From the IMG/VR virus record IMGVR_UViG_3300005836_000015: a stretch of DNA of 64,000 nucleotides, one strand, 5' to 3'. Within the stretch, counting starts at the first letter, position 1. Every line of letters begins with the position of its first letter. This document shows positions 10,917 to 38,443 of this stretch, piece after piece. The DNA is from a virus. The notes under the pieces are model-generated. The model searched no databases. It was given only the letters and a program-made list of their open reading frames with translations, and was not told where the DNA came from. The position numbers were made by a program, and so were the translations under genes.

Positions 10917-11086
10917 GATCGAGTATCCATCCGAACAGATCATACACGCAATTGTCGGTTCGAATCCGACCTCCCCCTCCGGAGCCTCGGCTCCTCAAGT
11001 TTGGGGGAGTAGCCTAACTGGAAAAGGCAACGGCCAGCAAAGCCGTCTCGCAAGAGACCCTGCTCTGTCCCCTCGGATACTTGATC
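10917..11086 (+). ncRNA. Y-RNA-like element with circularly permuted tRNA body
   Basis: Terminal helix GTATCC/GGATAC, CCGA/TCGG, ACAGA/TCTGT plus TACACGCA; then T arm and 3' acceptor strand CTCCCCC precede 5' strand GGGGGAG, D arm and anticodon arm (loop CAGCAAA). Confidence 0.75.
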
Positions 11087-11872: not shown

Positions 11873-13744
11873 ATGAAGATGGACCGTGAAAACCTGGGAC
11901 CGGCGGAGCGCATCATCCAGACGCTCCTCGCTTACTCCGACCACATGTACCACAACCGGCCGGGCATCGTGACCCAGGCCCCGGGCTCCGTCACGGGGGT
12001 CCTCTGGCAGCCGGCCGTCCGCAAGACCGAGAAGGTCGACGGGGCCGACAAGAACCACATCTACCAGCTCGCCAAGCAGGGGAAGAAGACGACGAAGACG
12101 CTCGTCGGAAGCCTCTGGCAGGACGGGACGGTTCGGACGGACGACCGCCGTAAGGTGGCCGAGTTCCGTGAGCCTGGCATCTTCCCCGAGGTTGCCTCCT
12201 GGTGCTACCAGCAGGTCGCCGAGGTCTGGAAGCTCGACAACGAGTTCGCAGCCCGCTGGGCGTCCTACGCCTTCGGGGACAAGTCGACGAGCCGGGACAT
12301 GAAGGTCGTTCTCGCGGCGTTCATGCTCTGCCAGTCTCGTCGGGGTGACCCGGTGAAGGAGAACGGCCAGGTGCTCTTCCTCGACGACGACTTCCGGAAC
12401 GTCGGGGAGGCGATGACGCTGCTTCCTGGTGGCTTCGACCTGAAGCTCCTGCTCCGGATCCGTGAGGTTCTGGAGCTCGAGACGGTGGCCAAGATCAACC
12501 GGGAGCTCGGCTTCGGCCGGTCGGCTCGGAAGGCTCACCTCGGTCGTTGGCCGGTCGTTGCGGCCAAGTGGCTGCGGTATCGGGAGCAGAACCCGAAGGT
12601 TCTCGACGGGCTCCTGAAGTCCGGGTTCCGCAAGTCGGTCATCAAGCTCTGCAAGGCGATCGGCTACAAGCCCACGACTCCGGAGGTCTTCCGGAAGCTC
12701 CGCTGGCAGCAGGCTCAGGCGGCCGATGGTCGTCGGGGCATCGCCATCGGAGAGAAGGTCGAGGCCGGGGAGACCTGGATCGGCCTGAAGGAGGAGCAGG
12801 TCTGCGAACGCATCCTCCGGGACAAGCCGACCTTCAAGCAGATCGTCGGCAAGCTCCCGGAAGGGCTCACGCGGGCCATCGTGGCGGCAGCCATCGAGGC
12901 TGGATCCTTCTCGGACAAGGACCTCATCATCTTCACGCCGACGCTCGAGGAACTGGGCCTGCTCAAGGTCCAGGACGTTCGGGAGCGGTGGGAGAAGGCG
13001 GTCCGGTCGGCCGAGGACCAGCGGGCGGCGAACATCGCCCGCAACGTCCAGTCGAAGGAGACGAAGGAGAAGCTCCAGGAGGGCGCCGACACCGCTGTCA
13101 AGGCGGCGGTGGAGGAGGTCATCAAGGGCATCCGGGTCTACTTCATGGTCGACATCTCGGCTTCGATGCAGGGTGCGATCGACGCGGCCAAGAGGTACAT
13201 CGGGAAGTTCCTCAGCGGCTTCCCGCCGGAGCAGATCCACATCTCTGTGTTCAACACGGGAGGCCGTGAGGTGACCCTCAAGCACGCTTCGGCGGCTGGG
13301 GTGGACCAGGCGTTCCGTGGGATCATGGCGGGTGGTGGAACCGACTACGGCGCCGGTGTTCGGGCGCTCCAGCACCACAAGCCGAAGGCAGACGAGGACG
13401 TGCTCTTCATCTTCGTCGGCGACGAGGAGGCGAACCCCTTCGTGGATGCTGTCCGTCTCTCGGGCCTCAACCCGATGGCGTTCGGCTTCCTCAAGGTTCG
13501 GAACTCGCCGAACTACTCGGCCGTCACCACGACGGCGGCTCAGCTCGGCATCCCGTGCTTCATGATCGACGAGAAGACGTTCGAGGACCCCTACGCTATC
13601 CCCAGGACGGTGAGGGCTCTCGTGGCGGCTACCCCCGTCGGCAAGGCGCACGCAGCGGCTCCGGTGGTCCGTGTTTCCCTCGTGGACACGATCATGAAGA
13701 CGGAGCTGCTCAAGAAGCCGGTCTGGGCAGACGCAGCAGCGTGA
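11873..13744 (+). CDS. vWA-domain protein with helical N-terminal domain (TROVE/Ro60-like architecture)
   Basis: C-terminal MIDAS VYFMVDISASMQG...GGGTD...FVGDEE; basic helical N-terminal region; GGAGG RBS before ATG 11873. vWA is firm; TROVE is inference. Confidence 0.75.
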   Translation: MKMDRENLGPAERIIQTLLAYSDHMYHNRPGIVTQAPGSVTGVLWQPAVRKTEKVDGADKNHIYQLAKQGKKTTKTLVGSLWQDGTVRTDDRRKVAEFREPGIFPEVASWCYQQVAEVWKLDNEFAARWASYAFGDKSTSRDMKVVLAAFMLCQSRRGDPVKENGQVLFLDDDFRNVGEAMTLLPGGFDLKLLLRIREVLELETVAKINRELGFGRSARKAHLGRWPVVAAKWLRYREQNPKVLDGLLKSGFRKSVIKLCKAIGYKPTTPEVFRKLRWQQAQAADGRRGIAIGEKVEAGETWIGLKEEQVCERILRDKPTFKQIVGKLPEGLTRAIVAAAIEAGSFSDKDLIIFTPTLEELGLLKVQDVRERWEKAVRSAEDQRAANIARNVQSKETKEKLQEGADTAVKAAVEEVIKGIRVYFMVDISASMQGAIDAAKRYIGKFLSGFPPEQIHISVFNTGGREVTLKHASAAGVDQAFRGIMAGGGTDYGAGVRALQHHKPKADEDVLFIFVGDEEANPFVDAVRLSGLNPMAFGFLKVRNSPNYSAVTTTAAQLGIPCFMIDEKTFEDPYAIPRTVRALVAATPVGKAHAAAPVVRVSLVDTIMKTELLKKPVWADAAA

Positions 13745-15556: not shown

Positions 15557-16132
15557 ATGAAGACGATCGTCATCGTGGGCGTGGGAGCCCTCGGTTCTCA
15601 CGCCGTCCAGTTCCTCCGCAACGTCGAGGCGACGATCCGTGTGGTCGACTTCGATCGGGTCGAGCAGCGGAACGTCATGGCGCAGTTCCACGGCAAGCCG
15701 AGTGTCGGCAAGGCCAAGGTCCAGAGCCTCCAGCAGGCGATGGACTTCCTCTTCAAGAGGAAGGTCGAAGCGGTCCCTCACAAGCTCGTCGAGAACAACG
15801 CCAAGGAGCTCCTCGGCTCGGCCGATCTCGTGATCGACTGCCTCGACAACGGCGAAGGACGACGGGTCATCCAGAGCTTCGTTCGGAAGGCCAAGGTTCC
15901 GTGCCTGCATGGGGCCCTGGCAGCCGACGGAAGCTTCGGATCGGTCCTCTGGGACGAGCACTTCGTCATCGACGACGTGACCGGCACCGGCAAGACCTGC
16001 GAGGACGGGGAGCACCTCCCCTTCATCGGCATGGTCGCCGTTCTGCTGGCTCAGGCCGCCCAGGAGTTCCTGCTGCATGGTCGCCAGGAGGGCTTCAACG
16101 TCTTCCCGGGCGGCCTGGTGAAAATCGGCTGA
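15557..16132 (+). CDS. ThiF/MoeB/E1-like adenylyltransferase
   Basis: IVGVGALGS, DFDRVEQRN..Q, K.K, DCLDN...R; candidate catalytic Cys in KTCEDG. Confidence 0.92.
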   Translation: MKTIVIVGVGALGSHAVQFLRNVEATIRVVDFDRVEQRNVMAQFHGKPSVGKAKVQSLQQAMDFLFKRKVEAVPHKLVENNAKELLGSADLVIDCLDNGEGRRVIQSFVRKAKVPCLHGALAADGSFGSVLWDEHFVIDDVTGTGKTCEDGEHLPFIGMVAVLLAQAAQEFLLHGRQEGFNVFPGGLVKIG

Positions 16133-16165
16133 CGGCCGTCAGATTTTTCTTCCGGCGGCCGTTTT

Positions 16166-16173
16166 CCGGTGTA
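16166..16173 (+). promoter_or_regulatory. candidate phage promoter motif CCGGTGTA
   Basis: TTTTCCGGTGTATACAAT directly before the chimeric RNA cluster. Confidence 0.55.
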
Positions 16174-16237
16174 TACAATGGCTCAAGGCGGGCTGTCGCC
16201 GCCTCAGACCCTGAAGTTAGGGGTTCGACAGCATCTC

Positions 16238-16379
16238 GGAGGACACTGAGGGTTGGTCCCTCGCCAGTCTCGTAAAACTGGTGCCAAAAGCACAACCCGC
16301 ACCGCGCCCTCGGTTCCCGTAAGGGAGCCATCCGAACGGTTCGTACACGCAACTTGGTTCGAATCCAAGGTCCTCCACC
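16238..16379 (+). ncRNA. tRNA-Tyr(GTA)-like RNA with conserved helix inserted before the T arm
   Basis: GGAGGAC/GTCCTCC acceptor, CCAGT...GTA...ACTGG arm, insert CCGCACCG...CCGAACGGTTCGTACACGCA, CTTGG-TTCGAAT-CCAAG T arm. Confidence 0.75.
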
Positions 16380-16395
16380 GACCGCACCCAACTGA

Positions 16396-16506
16396 CTGGA
16401 CCTCACAAGCATCTAGCGGGTTCGACTCCCGTCTTCTCCGCAAGGAGATGAAGCCAAACGGTAAGGCACTCGTCTGCAACACGAGCATCTAGCAACCAAG
16501 GTCCAG
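16396..16506 (+). ncRNA. circularly permuted tRNA-Cys(GCA)-like RNA
   Basis: T arm, then CTTCTCC-GCAA-GGAGATG closed acceptor, D arm, CTCGT-CT-GCA-AC-ACGAG; closed by CTGGACCT/AGGTCCAG. Confidence 0.75.
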
Positions 16507-16529
16507 CCCCTCGGGTAGGTCGAAACTTT

Positions 16530-16666
16530 GCCGGCTATGAGGGACGGTCCCTCACTTCCCTGTCAAGGAAAGCAATCCCCCGCACTGAGCACTCTCCTCT
16601 CCTCGTGGGAGGAAACCGCTGAGTTCGTACACGCACTTTCTGGTTCGACTCCAGAAGCCGGCGCCA
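16530..16666 (+). ncRNA. tRNA-Asp(GTC)-like RNA with conserved helix inserted before the T arm
   Basis: GCCGGCT/AGCCGGC-G-CCA acceptor, CT-GTC-AA loop, insert ending GTTCGTACACGCA. Confidence 0.75.
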
Positions 16667-16667
16667 G

Positions 16668-16789
16668 GGGCATCCAACCGAGCAGTTCGTACACGCAAGT
16701 AGCTCAATGTAGAGCAACGGCCTTGAACGCCGTGGGTTGTGGAGTCAAATCCACCTCGCACAAATCCGCACTGCCACCTCGGATGTCCC
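16668..16789 (+). ncRNA. Y-RNA-like element enclosing tRNA-Ser(TGA)-like arms
   Basis: GGGCATCC/GGATGTCC terminal helix, CCGAGCAGTTCGTACACGCA, D arm, ACGGC-CT-TGA-AC-GCCGT, degenerate T arm. Confidence 0.7.
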
Positions 16790-16798
16790 GAATCTTTT

Positions 16799-16945
16799 GG
16801 CCCGTACGGGGAACGGTACCCCACCTGCCTCATCAGCAGGAGCCGCCGCAAGGCGCTCTTCCCGCACCGTATTCTCGGTCCTCTCACGGGGACCAACCGC
16901 ACGGTTCGTACACGCATAGAAGGTTCGACTCCTTCACGGGCCTCC
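16799..16945 (+). ncRNA. tRNA(CAT)-like RNA with conserved helix inserted before the T arm
   Basis: GGCCCGT/ACGGGCC acceptor, CCTGC-CT-CAT-CA-GCAGG, insert ending CGGTTCGTACACGCA, GAAGG-TTCGACT-CCTTC. Confidence 0.75.
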
Positions 16946-16971
16946 TCTTCTCTCAAATCGCAGCAAGTCAC

Positions 16972-17057
16972 GCGGACGTGGCGGAATGGCAGACGCACTA
17001 GCTTGAGGTGCTAGCGGGTGAAAATCCCGTGGAGGTTCGAGTCCTCTCGTCCGCACC
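16972..17057 (+). tRNA. tRNA-Leu(GAG)
   Basis: Class II cloverleaf, CTAGC-TT-GAG-GT-GCTAG. Confidence 0.93.
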
Positions 17058-17226
17058 GATCGTCATCCATCTGAACAGATCATACACGCAAAATAGTGGG
17101 TTCGACTCCCACCTCCTCCACCGGGTCTTCGGACCTGAAAATGGGGGAGAAGCCCAACGGTAGGGCACCGGTACATGGAAACCGGCTCGAAAGAGCAACT
17201 CTGCTCTGTTTCCTCGGATGACGATC
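17058..17226 (+). ncRNA. Y-RNA-like element with circularly permuted tRNA body
   Basis: GATCGTCATCC/GGATGACGATC terminal helix, AACAGATCATACACGCA, T arm and CTCCTCC before GGGGGAG, D arm and anticodon-like arm. Confidence 0.75.
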
Positions 17227-17346
17227 AATCTTTTCCCCTCGAAGGCTTCCTGGTGGGGACCAAGCGGGCCGGTTTGATCAACCGGAAGCGCACGTAGAGC
17301 GAGTACACACCCTCGCCCTCACCAGAAAGCCTTCGAGGAACATCAC

Positions 17347-17423
17347 CGGGATATGGCGCAACCTGGTAGCGCACCTGTCTGGGGGACAGGGGGTTGTCGG
17401 TTCGAGTCCGGCTATCCCGACCA
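17347..17423 (+). tRNA. tRNA-Pro(GGG)
   Basis: CCTGT-CT-GGG-GG-ACAGG, CCA. Confidence 0.92.
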
Positions 17424-18481: not shown

Positions 18482-18558
18482 GGAGACGTTTGCCATCTGG
18501 TGATGGTGGCTGGCTGTGAACCAGTCCTAGGCGGGTTCGATCCCCGTACGTCTCCCCA
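18482..18558 (+). tRNA. tRNA-His(GTG)
   Basis: GCTGG-CT-GTG-AA-CCAGT; 8-bp acceptor with G-1:C73. Confidence 0.88.
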
Positions 18559-25327: not shown

Positions 25328-25399
25328 GGCCCGGTTCGCTGGAGCGGGGTGCGGTCTGCAAAACCGACACACAGGGGTTCGATCCCCCTCTGGGCCTCC
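25328..25399 (+). tRNA. tRNA-Cys(GCA)
   Basis: CGGT-CT-GCA-AA-ACCG, U73. Confidence 0.82.
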
Positions 25400-33030: not shown

Positions 33031-33380
33031 GGGCCTGATCGGCTTCGACGTGGGAAGGAAGGCAAAGTCTGCGTGCTGGCGGCTCCTGCTCCGCCCTATC
33101 AAGCGGGACGTATTAGCTGCGAACGACAACGCATCCGCTGCTCCCGCCCTCGCGGCGGCCTGAGTGGCTGTTCGGCGGGAAGATCGTCCTGGTACCCGCC
33201 GGGCATCATCACGAGGGCTGGATCCCAGGCGTGCTCAACGGCCGAAGGGTCGAGACTCACAGGTGGGCTAGGTCGAGGCCGAATCCTCGAACTCAGCCCG
33301 AGGGGATACTCGGGCTACGCACGTGAACGAAGACTTGCTGGATAGCTCGCGGACCTGGGTTCGATTCCCAGCAGGTCCAC
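33031..33380 (+). ncRNA. ssrA: tmRNA (tag ANDNASAAPALAAA)
   Basis: GGGCCTG...TTCGAC 5' end, G3:U acceptor with CAGGTCCA 3' end and T arm; resume GCG at 33119, tag ends TGA at 33163. Confidence 0.95.
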
Positions 33381-34402: not shown

Positions 34403-34791
34403 TGCCTCACTCGGTTGCTAGCAAGGCCCATCTCGCTGCGGCGCTTTTGCAGCGCTACCAGCAGCTTCACAACGACGCCGAGAAATCCTCCACCATTTCG
34501 ATGCTGAACGAGGTGTTTCCGAACATCCGGTTCCGGCACCGGAACGAAGAAGGGCTCATGGTTTTCTACCTTCAGGGTGCCACTACCTACAAGAGGCTTC
34601 CGAAGGTAGTGACCCATGTCGCAGGGGTCATTGTCGAGGTTCGGTCCGATGGTCAGGGGGAGGTCCTGAGGGATCGCATCTATGGACCAGGGCTTCTCTT
34701 CGATGCGACCGAGCTCCTGGTCGAGCTTGGCGGTGAAGTTCCTCGGAAATCCCGCTGGGAAATCCTGGGCGCCGAAGAGGACTGGATCTAG
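34402..34791 (+). CDS. hypothetical protein
   Basis: TGATG coupling to upstream gene; 129 aa. Confidence 0.6.
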   Translation: MPHSVASKAHLAAALLQRYQQLHNDAEKSSTISMLNEVFPNIRFRHRNEEGLMVFYLQGATTYKRLPKVVTHVAGVIVEVRSDGQGEVLRDRIYGPGLLFDATELLVELGGEVPRKSRWEILGAEEDWI

Positions 34792-34981
34792 TCGTCGGTC
34801 TGGTGTATGGTGGCTCCTGAGGCATCGCGCCCCCTGGGGCTTGGATCCTCGTAACAGCGAACCGCACCTTCGGGTTTGGGGACGCTGCGGACATCGAACC
34901 CGGAACGCCAACGGTTTGGGGATCTCGTCCGGATCCCGCGCTGACGGCAATCCCCTCGACTGTTTTACGGAGGATCTCACC

Positions 34982-36571
34982 ATGGAGATTCTTGCGCGTT
35001 TCACTCACGAAAACCTCGACCACACCCAGGACAACAAGGTCCACTTCGTCGTCAGCCTGAAGGCGCCGACGCTCGACTGGATGCAGAAGCGGCCGAAGCT
35101 CTGCGTCCTCCCGGTCATCGACCTCTCGGGTTCGATGCAGGGCGACAAGCTCCGGTACGCTCAGGCGAGCATGCTGAAGCTCGTCGACCAGCTCGCCGAC
35201 GGGGATTTCGCCGGTCTGGTTGCATTCGAGAGCCGGGTCCACGTGCTCGTCAAGCCGGGTCCCGTGACGGCCGACCTCAAGGACCGGCTCAAGGCGGCCA
35301 TCAACAAGCTCCACATCATGGGCGGGACGAACTTCGCCGAAGGCATGATGAAGGCGGTCAAGGAGGTTCAGCAGCTCGACTTGCCGAACGCCTTCCTGAA
35401 GCGGGTCATCATGTTCACGGATGGTCAGCCGACCGAGGGCGTGACCGACTCGAAGGTCATCCTCAAGATGCTCGACTCCAACCGGGGGAGCGTGACCGTC
35501 AGCTCCTTCGGCTATGGGGACCCGGCCGGCGGGACCTACAACGGTTGCGATCAGGACTTCCTCCTGAAGTTCTCCGAGCTCGGGAAGGGCAACTACGCCT
35601 ACGTCAAGAACCCCGACGATGCCCTGGCGGCGTTCGGCAAGGAGCTCGGCGGGCTCCTGAGCACCTACGCCACGGACCTCGAGATCGAGGTCGAACCGGT
35701 CAACGGGCACATCCTCGAGAAGCTCGTCTCGAACGTCGAGCACACGAAGGACGACACCGTAGGGACTTTCGAGGTCCCCTTCTCGGACATCCTCTGCGAA
35801 GAGACCCGTCACTTCGTCTTCGAGACGAAGCTCTCGAAGCAGCACAAGGTGTTCCCTCGGGAGACGACGGCCTTCAACGTCAAGCTCACCTACTCGGTCC
35901 TCACGGAAGACGGGAAGAAGGAGGCCAAGACGTTGGAGGAGAAGGCCCGGGTTCGGTTCGTCCGCCCGGCGGATGCCCAGAAGGAGCCGAACGCCGAGGT
36001 GATGGAGATCGTGAACCTCCACCGGGTGATCCGGGCTCAGCTCGAGGCCGAGGAGAAGGCGAAGAAGGGCCGGTATGAGGAAGCCGCCGCCCACATGAAC
36101 GACATCGCCGAAGAGGTCAAGACGAGCGGCGGGGTCCGGGGACGGAGGCTCGCTGCCGCAGCCATGAACGTCAGCCACCGGCTCGGCGATGCACACGTCT
36201 ACGCCAACAGCCAGGGCTATCTCCGGAGCTTCGCAGCCGGCGGGACTCGGGGCTACGGAGCGTCCGCCATGGACGAGGAAGCTGGGGCCGACCTCTTGGC
36301 TTGCAACGTCTCGCTCAGCAACAGCAGCCAGGAAGCCTACACGAGCGTCTTCACGGGCAGTGAGAACCTGAACATCGTGACCCACCAGCCGAGCCTCGTG
36401 GACCTCGTTCGACCGAGCTTGGCGGTTCCTCCGGCAGCCTCGAACCTGGTCCTCGAGCCCGGGGCCCTCAACGCTCTCTGGGGGGAGGCGGCTGCTCAAC
36501 AGACTCCGGCCTCGCCGGAAATCTCTCCCATCTCTTGGGTGGGAGGAAACGAAACGAACAAGTCAGGCTGA
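34982..36571 (+). CDS. vWA domain protein
   Basis: VIDLSGSMQG.K, GGTNF..G, IMFTDGQPT, GKGNYAYV; GGAGG RBS. Confidence 0.92.
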   Translation: MEILARFTHENLDHTQDNKVHFVVSLKAPTLDWMQKRPKLCVLPVIDLSGSMQGDKLRYAQASMLKLVDQLADGDFAGLVAFESRVHVLVKPGPVTADLKDRLKAAINKLHIMGGTNFAEGMMKAVKEVQQLDLPNAFLKRVIMFTDGQPTEGVTDSKVILKMLDSNRGSVTVSSFGYGDPAGGTYNGCDQDFLLKFSELGKGNYAYVKNPDDALAAFGKELGGLLSTYATDLEIEVEPVNGHILEKLVSNVEHTKDDTVGTFEVPFSDILCEETRHFVFETKLSKQHKVFPRETTAFNVKLTYSVLTEDGKKEAKTLEEKARVRFVRPADAQKEPNAEVMEIVNLHRVIRAQLEAEEKAKKGRYEEAAAHMNDIAEEVKTSGGVRGRRLAAAAMNVSHRLGDAHVYANSQGYLRSFAAGGTRGYGASAMDEEAGADLLACNVSLSNSSQEAYTSVFTGSENLNIVTHQPSLVDLVRPSLAVPPAASNLVLEPGALNALWGEAAAQQTPASPEISPISWVGGNETNKSG

Positions 36572-36741: not shown

Positions 36742-37032
36742 ATGTCTGGGGACATCCGCTTCGCCAACATCAGCATCGTCAGCATCTCGGATGATCTGAT
36801 CGCCCGGGTTGCTCGTCGGACAAGACGGTCCATCGATGAGGTTCGTGCCTACCTCAAGACGGACCAGCAGGATGACGAGCTCCTTCGGGCGTTCTTGTTC
36901 TTTGGGGTCGGACCCAGGAACAAGCGGTTCACCAGGACCGAAATCGAGGTGCTGTTGGCCGACGAGTCTGGGCGCGAGCCCCTCGGCTACAGGATCTTCA
37001 CAAATCGCAAGGACTTCGAGAGCAACAGGTAA
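36742..37032 (+). CDS. hypothetical protein
   Basis: 96 aa; CCGGTGTA at 36724. Confidence 0.55.
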   Translation: MSGDIRFANISIVSISDDLIARVARRTRRSIDEVRAYLKTDQQDDELLRAFLFFGVGPRNKRFTRTEIEVLLADESGREPLGYRIFTNRKDFESNR

Positions 37033-37036
37033 CGTC

Positions 37037-38443
37037 ATGTCCCTCAAGTACGCTGCGTCGAAGGTCGAAGAAGGTCACTACGTCCTGCCGAAGGTCGGGA
37101 CGATGAAGGTCGAGGCTCACGCCTTCCTCTCGGACGAGCTGTACGCCTCTTCCGAGGAGAACTTCTGGGATCAGCTCTCCAACGGGGCGAGTTACGAGGG
37201 CATCATCGGCGCCTATGCCATGCCCGATTGCCACGTCGGGTTCGGTGTCCCGGTCGGGGTCGTCCTGGTGACCGAAGACACGATCATCCAGGCGGGGAGC
37301 GGCTACGACATCTCCTGCGGGGTGATCTACATGAAGGTCCCGGGTCTGACGGCGACAGGAATCAAGAGCTGGTACAAGCGTGAGACCTGGGTCCGTGAGG
37401 TCGAGAAGCGGATCGCTACGGGAATGGGCTCGGAACGGCCGAGCCTCATGCCGAAGTTCAAGTCCGGGCAGGCCGACGAGATCCTTCGCCATGGGGCCAA
37501 GGCCCTCGGCGTTTCGGCCGACCTTTGCGAGCGCCAGTACATCCCGGTGCCCGAGGGCATGGATTTCAAGAAAATCGACAAGGCATACGACAAGGTGATC
37601 CCGCAGCTCGGCTCGGTCGGCGGGGGCAACCACTTCGTCGAGATGCAGGTCGACGAGAAGACCGGTGAGGTCTACGTCATGGTCCACTGCGGCAGCCGAG
37701 GCTACGGCTGGCAGACGGCGAACCACTTCTTCTTCGAAGGGGCGAAACTCCGGGGACTCCCGTCGAACCGCCGGGAAGACTCCTGGCTCCGGATCGACGA
37801 GCCTCTCGGAAAGGAGTACTGGGCCTACCACAACTCCGCTGCGAACTTCGCCGTCGCCAACCGCCACATCATCGTTCGCGGCATCCAAGAGGCCCTGGAA
37901 AAGGTTTTCAGCGTTCAGGGCGAGGTCTACTACGAGATCAGCCACAATCTCGTCCAGGAGGAAACGCTGGTCCTTCCAGATGGGACATCCAAGAAGGGCT
38001 TCGTCCACCGGAAGGGAGCGACGAGGGCCTTCCCGGCGGGGCATCCCGACCTCAAGGGGACCGTCTGGGAGAAGACCGGGCATCCGTGTCTCATCCCGGG
38101 GTCGATGTACCACGGGGCGGCCATCCTCTTCGCCGGAGAGAATGCCTACAAGTCCGCCTGCTCGGTCAACCACGGGTCGGGTCGGATCATGGCTCGGGGT
38201 GCCGCCAAGAAGAAGCTGGGCCACAAGCAGGCCGAGATCGACGGCGAGATGAAGGAGGTCCAGCGTGAGCTGGGCGGCGTTCGGGTCGATGGCATCGTGG
38301 GCAACCACAAGCACACGCCCCTCGACGAGTGCGCTCATGTCTACAAGGACCTGGACGAGGTGCTCGGTGTACTGGAGTCGACGGGCATTGCCCGGGTGGC
38401 CCATCGCCTCTGGCCCGTGGCCAACCTGAAGGGAACCGAATGA
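37037..38443 (+). CDS. rtcB: RNA ligase RtcB
   Basis: MPDCHVGFGVPVG, GYDISCG, GSVGGGNHFVE, HCGSRG, HRKGAT, IPGSM, HGSGR. Confidence 0.96.
   Translation: MSLKYAASKVEEGHYVLPKVGTMKVEAHAFLSDELYASSEENFWDQLSNGASYEGIIGAYAMPDCHVGFGVPVGVVLVTEDTIIQAGSGYDISCGVIYMKVPGLTATGIKSWYKRETWVREVEKRIATGMGSERPSLMPKFKSGQADEILRHGAKALGVSADLCERQYIPVPEGMDFKKIDKAYDKVIPQLGSVGGGNHFVEMQVDEKTGEVYVMVHCGSRGYGWQTANHFFFEGAKLRGLPSNRREDSWLRIDEPLGKEYWAYHNSAANFAVANRHIIVRGIQEALEKVFSVQGEVYYEISHNLVQEETLVLPDGTSKKGFVHRKGATRAFPAGHPDLKGTVWEKTGHPCLIPGSMYHGAAILFAGENAYKSACSVNHGSGRIMARGAAKKKLGHKQAEIDGEMKEVQRELGGVRVDGIVGNHKHTPLDECAHVYKDLDEVLGVLESTGIARVAHRLWPVANLKGTE

What the first reader, a model, noticed from the sequence alone, without database searches (positions are those of the whole stretch)
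16396..16506. Circularly permuted tRNA-Cys closed by a GNRA tetraloop and bounded by a 10-nt direct repeat
Seen: order is T arm, 3' acceptor strand, GCAA tetraloop, 5' acceptor strand, D arm, anticodon arm (GCA). AGCATCTAGC occurs at both 16408-16417 and 16484-16493, exactly the anticodon-stem/variable-loop/T-stem junction where the permutation opens. It lacks the YACACGCA motif and has no free 3' CCA, so it cannot be charged. Inference: the terminal redundancy fits a tandem tRNA duplication or capture of a circularised tRNA (the window encodes RtcB). It may serve as an uncharged decoy or a precursor processed through a circular intermediate.
Basis: partly seen in the sequence, partly recalled or inferred. 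Interest (0 to 1): 0.7.

Follow-up and report, generated by a model that had tools for sequence, protein, structure and literature searches.

The report
Y-RNA-like tRNA mimic in huge phage
The "permuted tRNA-Cys" is a real, conserved, tRNA-shaped non-coding RNA with a sealed acceptor end, one of a family encoded next to a very divergent Ro60-like gene in huge phages, so it is best read as a new variant of the known bacterial Y RNAs rather than as a decoding tRNA.

Summary
Positions 16416-16485 run T arm, 3' acceptor strand, GCAA loop, 5' acceptor strand, D arm, anticodon arm (GCA). Re-ordered, ARAGORN calls the sequence tRNA-Cys, and the 10-nt repeat is exact.

It is not a one-off. A covariance model finds 41 such elements in 29 of 65 sources (the window plus 64 related huge-phage loci). 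All lie on the strand of, and within 5.5 kb of, a conserved 620-aa protein gene. Seventeen of 20 core pairs show compensatory changes.

That protein's helical domain matches only Ro60 structures at Z 8 or more (11.9, 10.8, 8.7), and it ends in a vWA domain. The family shares two closing helices and the flank motifs YACA(C/A/U)GCA and CUCGG. The element has the commonest motif variant, CACAAGCA, so it does not lack the motif.

The GCA loop occurs only here and in one other phage; relatives carry unrelated loops. The discriminator is G, not U73. Both phages with the GCA form also have a normal tRNA-Cys. The direct repeat is unique to this window, and six of its ten bases come from conserved motifs.

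Best reading: a YrlA/Yrn1-type Y-RNA-like tRNA mimic, a new variant of a known kind. Maturation through a circular intermediate is unsupported. Earlier notes on this same window read it similarly.

The parts
16379..16389 (+). P1, outer closing helix, 5' strand (pairs with 16513-16522; small internal loop)
   Evidence: MFE fold. Outer stems of 7-13 bp sit at the same distance in relatives.
16396..16403 (+). P2, inner closing helix, 5' strand CUGGACCU
   Evidence: Compensated in L002 (GUUGUGGCU with AGCCAUAGC).
16404..16411 (+). Conserved junction motif CACAAGCA, a variant of YACACGCA, 4 nt before the T arm
   Evidence: Sequence. A NACA[ACU]G motif lies in 34 of 37 family members at this place.
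16416..16432 (+). T arm (5-bp stem, loop UUCGACU)
   Evidence: Covariation at 3 of 5 pairs.
16433..16450 (+). Acceptor-like 7-bp stem closed by GCAA (3' strand first, then 5' strand). The base after the 3' strand is G, not U73.
   Evidence: All 7 pairs covary in the family.
16453..16467 (+). D arm GCC-AAACGGUAA-GGC, with G18 and G19
   Evidence: The D arm is conserved across the family.
16469..16485 (+). Anticodon-like arm, loop CUGCAAC (GCA at 16476-16478)
   Evidence: The stem covaries at 5 of 5 pairs. The loop is not conserved in relatives.
16486..16498 (+). 3' junction strand with the conserved GCAACCA
16499..16506 (+). P2, 3' strand AGGUCCAG
16507..16522 (+). Conserved CUCGG motif (16510-16514) followed by the P1 3' strand (16513-16522)
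   Evidence: CUCG[AG] lies downstream in 36 of 37 family members.
16408..16417 (+). Direct repeat copy 1 (AGCATCTAGC). Copy 2 is at 16484-16493.
   Evidence: Not conserved in relatives.
11879..13744 (+). Gene of the divergent Ro60-like protein (N-terminal beta domain, TROVE-like helical domain, C-terminal vWA), the presumed protein partner
   Evidence: Pfam finds vWA only. Foldseek on the full-length model ranks Ro60/TROVE first. The helical domain alone gives Z 11.9, 10.8 and 8.7 to three Ro60 structures and 6.1 to the next chain.
10930..11074 (+). Paralogous permuted tRNA-like element. Its acceptor closure of 25 nt starts UCC and contains a hairpin.
   Evidence: Covariance model R1, 75.9 bits..
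17070..17210 (+). Paralogous permuted tRNA-like element. Its closure of 23 nt starts ACC. P1 is 11 bp, 17060-17070 with 17216-17226.
   Evidence: R1, 66.3 bits..
25328..25399 (+). Canonical tRNA-Cys(GCA) of the same phage, with U73
36809..38443 (+). RtcB RNA ligase gene, 20 kb away
   Evidence: Pfam PF01139, E 2.3e-84.

Best explanation
The element is a stable non-coding RNA of the Y-RNA kind (YrlA/Yrn1 type). It has a tRNA-shaped body whose acceptor stem is sealed by a tetraloop, carried on a two-part stem (P1, P2) formed by its own 5' and 3' flanks. It is probably made from the same precursor as the neighbouring tRNA-like genes. I infer that its stem and the conserved junction strands (YACAAGCA on the 5' side, GCAACCAG and CUCGG on the 3' side) are held by the phage's Ro60-like ring protein, encoded 2.65 kb upstream on the same strand. 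The tRNA-like body would then give nuclease resistance and a handle for a tRNA-binding partner, as in Ro60-Y RNA particles that work with RNA decay and repair enzymes. It does not decode and is not charged. Shown here: the anatomy, its conservation with compensatory changes, the family, the linkage and shared strand with the Ro60-like gene, and the Ro60-like fold. Inferred: transcription, binding by the Ro60-like protein, and the function.
For: (1) Anatomy. (2) Orthologue at the same site in a 406-kb phage (L002:6837-6951), with compensatory changes in the T stem, anticodon stem, acceptor hairpin and P2. (3) Family. A descriptor scan and covariance model R1 find 41 elements scoring above the best decoy (62.1 bits) in 29 of 65 sources (window plus 64 loci), all on the strand of the Ro60-like gene and within 5.5 kb of it. 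The window has three: 100.3, 75.9 and 66.3 bits. (4) Covariation. In the seed, 17 of 20 pairs change on both sides, and 97.9% of cells pair against 36-52% when partners are slid. In 27 non-seed hits, 98.1% pair and 17 of 20 pairs change on both sides. (5) Flank features not used in the search. A NACA[ACU]G motif is present in 34 of 37 members and CUCG[AG] in 36 of 37. Closing stems of 8 bp or more occur in 86% against 15% of shuffles. (6) Partner. The helical domain of the 620-aa protein, searched alone against 48,161 chains, has exactly three hits at Z 8 or more, all Ro60: 1yvp Z 11.9 over 262 residues, 2nvo Z 10.8, 9l5y Z 8.7. The next chain scores 6.1. The full-length model ranks TROVE/Ro60 first (E 6.9e-8), and the C-terminal domain is vWA as in Ro60. 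(7) The best non-tRNA Rfam family on the element is YrlA, aligned to its T, acceptor-stem and D blocks. (8) Literature. YrlA RNAs are described as resembling circularly permuted tRNAs with closed acceptor stems, encoded within 4 kb of Ro60 on the same strand, also in phages, and Yrn1 has an anticodon-like arm (PMC4201824; bioRxiv 10.1101/312249). TROVE proteins with a tRNA-like partner are noted in some jumbo phages (PMC7824862). (9) Evidence that it does not decode. The discriminator is G here and C in L002. Position 8 is A. The anticodon-like loops of relatives are 6-9 nt, often without U33. A canonical tRNA-Cys with U73 exists in both phages.
Against: No sequence method sees TROVE in the protein or anywhere in five relatives' whole records, so the Ro60 link rests on predicted structure (pLDDT 75-78). 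The Rfam YrlA score is far below threshold (19.5 against 69 bits; relatives 25-28), and tandem tRNA junctions score as well. The published Ro-binding motif GNCGAAN0-1G is not in this element; paralogues have AUCCGAACAG. The two closest relatives with DNA (L107, 83% identical; L110, 71%) lack the element at the syntenic site, so it is dispensable. The perfect 7-nt CUGCAA(C/A) loop kept in two distant phages is not explained by a pure scaffold role.
Confidence: 0.68

Rival explanations
1. True permuted tRNA gene. The precursor is cut at the two junction strands, the ends are joined (RtcB) into a circle, and RNase P and 3' trimming open the acceptor loop to give a working tRNA-Cys.
For: The re-ordered sequence is a good cloverleaf with U33, GCA and A37. 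Cutting at the same place in both repeat copies and joining them would give exactly one variable loop. RtcB is encoded in the window. A 7-bp acceptor stem made M. smegmatis YrlA an RNase P substrate with CCA addition in vivo (PMC4201824). The GCA loop is kept in L002.
Against: The discriminator is G here and C in L002, not the U73 seen in both phages' canonical tRNA-Cys. Position 8 is A. The closure is only 4-5 nt and has no CCA. The closing helix is a plain 8-bp stem with 12-13-nt single strands, so there is no bulge-helix-bulge. The repeat is absent from all other members, including L002. Relatives have non-anticodon loops. A canonical tRNA-Cys is present in both phages. The element is missing at the syntenic site in the closest relatives.
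Confidence: 0.07
2. Ro60-independent tRNA decoy. This would be an exonuclease-proof, uncharged tRNA look-alike that soaks up a host tRNA-directed nuclease, modification enzyme or sensor during infection. Its position next to the Ro60-like gene would be only because both sit in the tRNA array.
For: It has a tRNA-shaped core with intact T and D loops and a canonical anticodon loop. Both ends are sealed or paired. It sits inside a 47-tRNA array of a phage that also encodes RtcB, tmRNA and EF-Tu.
Against: The conserved P1 and P2 helices and the junction motifs, shared by 34-36 of 37 members, are not needed for a simple decoy. Anticodon-like loops differ widely between relatives. No tool here can test a nuclease target.
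Confidence: 0.15
3. Decaying relic of a tandem tRNA-Cys duplication, with no function.
For: A 14-nt direct repeat with one mismatch bounds one 76-nt unit. The element is absent at the same site in L107 and L110.
Against: It is kept at the same site in a phage with 54-62% identical flanking proteins, with compensatory changes in four helices. It scores 100.3 bits in a family model whose members show 98% pairing. Two stable closing helices and both conserved motifs are intact.
Confidence: 0.03

Closest known systems
YrlA (Y RNA-like A) of Salmonella, Mycobacterium smegmatis and mycobacteriophages; Rfam RF02553
   Same: The order T arm, closed acceptor-like stem-loop, D arm. The 5' and 3' ends pair into a stem. 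It is encoded near, and on the strand of, a Ro60-type gene. There are several Y-like RNAs per locus, co-located with tRNA genes. The 7-bp acceptor stem matches M. smegmatis YrlA.
   Different: In YrlA the terminal stem takes the place of the anticodon stem and there is no anticodon loop. Here the terminal stem leaves from the variable-loop position and a full anticodon arm is present. The conserved motifs differ (YACAMGCA and CUCGG instead of GNCGAAN0-1G). The Rfam model scores 19.5 bits against a threshold of 69. The partner protein is not recognised by the TROVE profile.
Deinococcus radiodurans Yrn1
   Same: A Y RNA with a T arm and an anticodon-like 5-bp arm, no V arm, made with a tRNA from one precursor, and bound by Rsr (PMC4201824).
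   Different: Yrn1 has a 6-nt loop and only partial D-arm features. No sequence similarity was tested here.
Circularly permuted tRNA genes of Cyanidioschyzon merolae and some other algae and archaea
   Same: The 3' half is encoded before the 5' half, and the acceptor stem is first a closed loop.
   Different: Those precursors form a bulge-helix-bulge motif cut by the splicing endonuclease, pass through a circle and end as charged tRNAs. Here there is no such motif, no U73 and no conserved anticodon among relatives.
Two-piece (permuted) tmRNA of alpha-proteobacteria and cyanobacteria
   Same: A bacterial precedent for a permuted tRNA-like gene with the T arm and 3' acceptor strand first (own knowledge).
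   Different: tmRNA carries a tag reading frame and a CCA end and is charged with alanine. The window has an ordinary one-piece tmRNA at 33031-33380.

Membership tests
YrlA/Yrn1-type bacterial Y RNA | tRNA-like module in the order T arm, closed acceptor-like stem-loop, D arm | tested here: met
YrlA/Yrn1-type bacterial Y RNA | 5' and 3' ends pair into a long stem | tested here: met
   P1 and P2 in the fold. Closing stems of 8 bp or more in 86% of family members against 15% of shuffles. In silico only.
YrlA/Yrn1-type bacterial Y RNA | Encoded within about 4 kb of a Ro60 (TROVE) gene on the same strand | tested here: inconclusive
   It lies 2.65 kb downstream on the same strand of a protein whose helical domain matches only Ro60 structures at Z 8 or more and which ends in vWA. 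The Pfam TROVE profile finds nothing in the protein or in five related phage records.
YrlA/Yrn1-type bacterial Y RNA | Reaches the gathering score of the Rfam YrlA model (69 bits) | tested here: not met
   19.5 bits, E 0.35. Relatives score 24.8-28.1 bits, no better than a tandem tRNA junction.
YrlA/Yrn1-type bacterial Y RNA | GNCGAAN0-1G motif near the 5' end (proposed Ro60 contact) | tested here: not met
   This element has AACUGACUGG at that place. Paralogues at 10930 and 17070 have AUCCGAACAG and AUCUGAACAG.
YrlA/Yrn1-type bacterial Y RNA | Bound and stabilised by Ro60 in cells | not testable with these tools
   Needs a pull-down or crosslinking experiment.
Circularly permuted tRNA gene (C. 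merolae type) | 3' half upstream of the 5' half, giving a cloverleaf when re-ordered | tested here: met
Circularly permuted tRNA gene (C. merolae type) | Precursor ends form a bulge-helix-bulge motif at the junction | tested here: not met
   The fold shows an uninterrupted 8-bp helix with 12-13-nt unpaired strands on either side.
Circularly permuted tRNA gene (C. merolae type) | The product has the identity elements of its isoacceptor (U73 for Cys) and the anticodon is kept among orthologues | tested here: not met
   G73 here and C73 in L002, while both canonical tRNA-Cys genes have U73. Loops of relatives are unrelated.
Circularly permuted tRNA gene (C. merolae type) | Circular intermediate and a mature linear tRNA | not testable with these tools
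   No RNA data were found.

The most novel reading that the evidence does not exclude
The element, and more plausibly its paralogues whose acceptor closures begin with NCC(A), is opened by RNase P and 3' trimming, or is excised at the repeated junction and circularised by the phage RtcB. The product would be a two-piece or re-linearised tRNA-like molecule with a free CCA end that can be charged. That would be the first permuted-tRNA maturation pathway in a bacterial virus.
Probability: 0.06. Interest if true: 0.9.

Novelty: new variant of a known kind. Interest (0 to 1): 0.5.

Why it matters
Y RNAs with a tRNA-like module are known from bacteria and a few phages, but their function is still unclear. 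Here the module appears in a different permutation, opened at the variable loop with a whole anticodon arm kept. It has its own conserved motifs, occurs in several copies per genome, and sits beside a Ro60 look-alike that sequence profiles miss. It is present in dozens of 100-600 kb phages, and a copy of the same cassette lies on a contig with bacterial-type neighbouring genes. This widens the known range of Ro60-Y RNA systems. It also gives a compact, well-covarying RNA family for structural and binding studies. Practically, it shows that tRNA finders miss such genes, so the stretch could be mistaken for a broken tRNA.

Tried and rejected
- blastn of 16100-16900 against 50,697 phage records found no match.
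- An exact-pattern scan of IMG/VR for T loop, gap, tRNA-Cys D arm and CTGCAA returned 100 stretches. All except the window-like L002 contig were ordinary tandem tRNA-X plus tRNA-Cys genes that ARAGORN calls normally.
- Sequence-level detection of TROVE failed. Pfam, NCBIfam, PHROGs and PDB phmmer found nothing on the protein. Pfam found nothing on 27 homologues. The TROVE profile found nothing over five whole phage records.
- Protein language-model neighbours are TROVE and DUF2828 clusters at 0.87, which is a lead only.
- The VIA second look at the full-length model was filled by vWA domains and said nothing about the helical part.
- Foldseek on the helical domain alone gave no hit at E 0.001 or better, though the two TROVE entries had the best TM scores, 0.39-0.40.
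- No RNA holder was listed among public runs for 16150-17260, so expression could not be examined and read laying was not used.
- The only named GenBank relative, Virus Rctr197k (KX853510.1), has the Ro60-like region as a misc_feature but no permuted element within 6 kb.
- Model R1 scores tandem tRNA-X/tRNA-Cys junctions up to 62.1 bits in 99 decoy loci, so only hits above that were counted.
- The seed alignment was picked by a descriptor that demands pairing, so its percent-paired figure is circular. The non-seed hits and the flank motifs are the fairer evidence.
- The idea that the direct repeat is a family feature was tested and rejected.
- The idea that the element is a recent copy of the phage's own tRNA-Cys was rejected, because the two are dissimilar.

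Full report
**What is there.** The window comes from a huge phage. It has 46 tRNA genes and a tmRNA, plus EF-Tu, GroEL and RtcB.

At 16416-16485 the parts run in this order:
- T arm 16416-16432
- 3' acceptor strand 16433-16439
- GCAA 16440-16443
- 5' acceptor strand 16444-16450
- D arm 16453-16467
- anticodon-like arm 16469-16485, loop CUGCAAC

ARAGORN and Rfam's tRNA model do not call this stretch as it stands. When 16444-16493 is joined to 16418-16439, ARAGORN calls tRNA-Cys(GCA). The 10-nt repeat is exact and extends to 14 nt with one mismatch.

The fold adds two closing helices made by the flanks. P2 pairs 16396-16403 with 16499-16506. P1 pairs 16379-16389 with 16513-16522. The fold has z = -3.1.

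**It is conserved and belongs to a family.** The gene upstream (15557-16132) is ThiF-like. Loci holding its relatives gave an orthologue at the same site in a 406-kb phage contig, L002:6837-6951.
- There the T stem, anticodon stem, acceptor hairpin and P2 all differ by compensatory changes.
- CUGCAA and the D arm are kept.
- The closing loop is CAUUG, not a GNRA loop.

A strict pattern scan of IMG/VR found no further GCA-bearing copy. Its other hits were ordinary tandem tRNA genes.

I then fetched 60 loci around relatives of the 620-aa protein encoded at 11879-13744 and scanned them with a structural descriptor. This showed dozens of elements with the same order of parts.

A covariance model built from 14 of them finds 41 hits that score above the best decoy. 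The decoy score is 62.1 bits, measured on 99 loci rich in tandem tRNA-Cys junctions. The 41 hits lie in 29 of 65 sources (the window plus 64 loci), all on the strand of the 620-aa gene. The window has three: 16391-16512 (100.3 bits), 10930-11074 (75.9) and 17070-17210 (66.3).

Covariation:
- Seed alignment: 17 of 20 pairs change on both sides, and 97.9% of cells pair against 36-52% when partners are slid.
- The seed was picked by a rule that demands pairing, so I also counted 27 non-seed hits. There 98.1% pair and 17 of 20 pairs show double changes.

Features that played no part in the search are also shared:
- a NACA[ACU]G motif just 5' of the T arm, in 34 of 37 members
- CUCG[AG] downstream, in 36 of 37
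- closing stems of 8 bp or more, in 86% against 15% of shuffled flanks

The element therefore does not lack the motif. It has the commonest variant, CACAAGCA, at 16404-16411.

**The direct repeat.** Across 37 members, the longest word shared by the two junction strands is 3-7 nt. Only this window has 10.

Six of the ten bases are conserved family sequence: AGCA of YACAAGCA on the 5' side, AGCA after the anticodon stem, and the GC of GCAACC on the 3' side. The real coincidence is the 4-nt spacer UCUA on both sides and a T stem that begins GC. This is weak evidence for a duplication or for capture of a circular tRNA.

**It does not decode.** The evidence against a decoding tRNA is as follows.
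- The base after the 3' acceptor strand is G here and C in L002.
- The canonical tRNA-Cys genes of both phages have U73 and look unlike the element (window 25328-25399; G001 229132-229206).
- Position 8 is A.
- The closure is 4-5 nt with no CCA.
- Relatives have loops such as CUAGAAA, CAAAUAA, AUAUUGGA and UUUUGGU, of 6-9 nt and often without U33.
- The two closest relatives with DNA lack the element at the syntenic site (L107 and L110).

**The protein next door.** Pfam sees only a vWA domain in the 620-aa protein. Several structure-based searches point to Ro60.
- Its AlphaFold model (pLDDT 77.5) has a beta domain, a helical repeat domain and a vWA domain.
- Foldseek ranks TROVE/Ro60 structures first over more than 500 columns, at E 6.9e-8 to 2e-5.
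- The helical domain was folded alone and aligned to 48,161 representative chains. It has exactly three hits at Z 8 or more, all Ro60: Xenopus 1yvp (Z 11.9, 262 residues, rmsd 5.2), Deinococcus Rsr 2nvo (Z 10.8) and Thermus phage 9l5y (Z 8.7). The next chain scores 6.1 over 113 residues.

Sequence profiles for TROVE find nothing. I call it Ro60-like by fold, not a proven Ro60.

**Comparison with what is known.** Chen et al. (PMC4201824) report the following.
- YrlA RNAs carry T, closed acceptor-stem and D modules.
- They lie within 4 kb of Ro60 on the same strand, in bacteria and phages.
- M. smegmatis YrlA has a 7-bp acceptor stem, is cut by RNase P and receives CCA.
- Yrn1 has an anticodon-like arm.

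Wang et al. [quoted passage not shown] They discuss an origin from dimeric pre-tRNAs. Iyer et al. (PMC7824862) note TROVE proteins with a tRNA-like partner in some jumbo phages.

So the kind is known. What differs here:
- the break point is at the variable loop, so a whole anticodon arm remains
- the conserved motifs are different
- the Rfam YrlA model fails (19.5 against 69 bits; relatives 25-28 bits)
- the partner protein is very divergent

**Verdict.** This is most likely (0.68) a Y-RNA-like tRNA mimic that works with the Ro60-like protein.

Rivals:
- a Ro60-independent decoy (0.15)
- a true permuted tRNA precursor (0.07)
- a relic (0.03)

Transcription, binding and function are inferred. 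No RNA data could be found.

Earlier notes of this scan on the same window read the protein as Ro60-like and the neighbouring RNAs as a Y-like family. I reached the same reading from my own searches and tested the fold claim independently.

Noticed in passing
window 16239-16380, 16530-16668, 16800-16946: Three tRNA-like genes in normal order, with an open acceptor stem ending ACC or GCCA. Each carries a 65-70-nt insert between the anticodon arm and the T arm. The insert forms the same helix (CCGCAC.. with ..GUUCG, with a conserved C.U mismatch) and ends in GUACACGCA just before the T arm. It is the Y-like stem placed as a capped variable arm. D stems are 6 bp with 4-nt loops. Anticodon loops vary between relatives.
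   Followed up: partly
window 16669-16762: The motif GUUCGUACACGCA runs straight into a tRNA-like gene (Rfam tRNA 43.9 bits) whose acceptor stem pairs poorly. L107, L108 and L110 have the same arrangement.
   Followed up: no
window 10930-11074 and 17070-17210; many loci: In most family members with a long closure, the acceptor closure begins with NCC or NCCA (ACCA.., UCCGG.., GCCA..), often followed by a small hairpin. This looks like an encoded tRNA 3' end. It suggests that RNase P and 3' trimming open these copies, as in M. smegmatis YrlA. Short closures such as GCAA, UUCG, C-GCAA-G and C-GUAA-G look permanently sealed.
   Followed up: partly
L108:5711-5836 and L109 (GCA_005776825.1): The same cassette occurs on contigs with bacterial-type neighbours (tryptophan synthase, a CHAT-WD40 protein). 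It consists of a permuted element, the Ro60-like gene, small genes, a ThiF-like gene and two tRNA-like chimeras. The system may therefore also live in cellular genomes.
   Followed up: no
L141:11413-11505: A bacterial small SRP RNA (Rfam 57.7 bits, threshold 40) lies directly after two permuted elements in a 497-kb phage contig.
   Followed up: no
window 18482-18555: An Rfam tRNA-Sec match just above threshold (49.3 against 47 bits) inside the tRNA array. ARAGORN does not call it.
   Followed up: no
window 34682-36571: A second vWA protein (629 aa, vWA at residues 145-305) lies directly upstream of tRNA-Ser and RtcB. It has a weak hit to a PHROG annotated as RNA-binding protein.
   Followed up: no
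window 16126-16180: A terminator-like hairpin with a U run lies right after the ThiF-like gene, followed by CCGGUGUAUACAAU. The RNA array may have its own promoter. No sigma-70-like site was found in 15900-17400.
   Followed up: no
L107:10131-10240, L110:10340-10390: The closest relatives lack the Cys-like element (L107 also lacks chimera 1) at the syntenic place, while the distant L002 has both. The distribution is patchy, implying repeated loss or exchange.
   Followed up: partly
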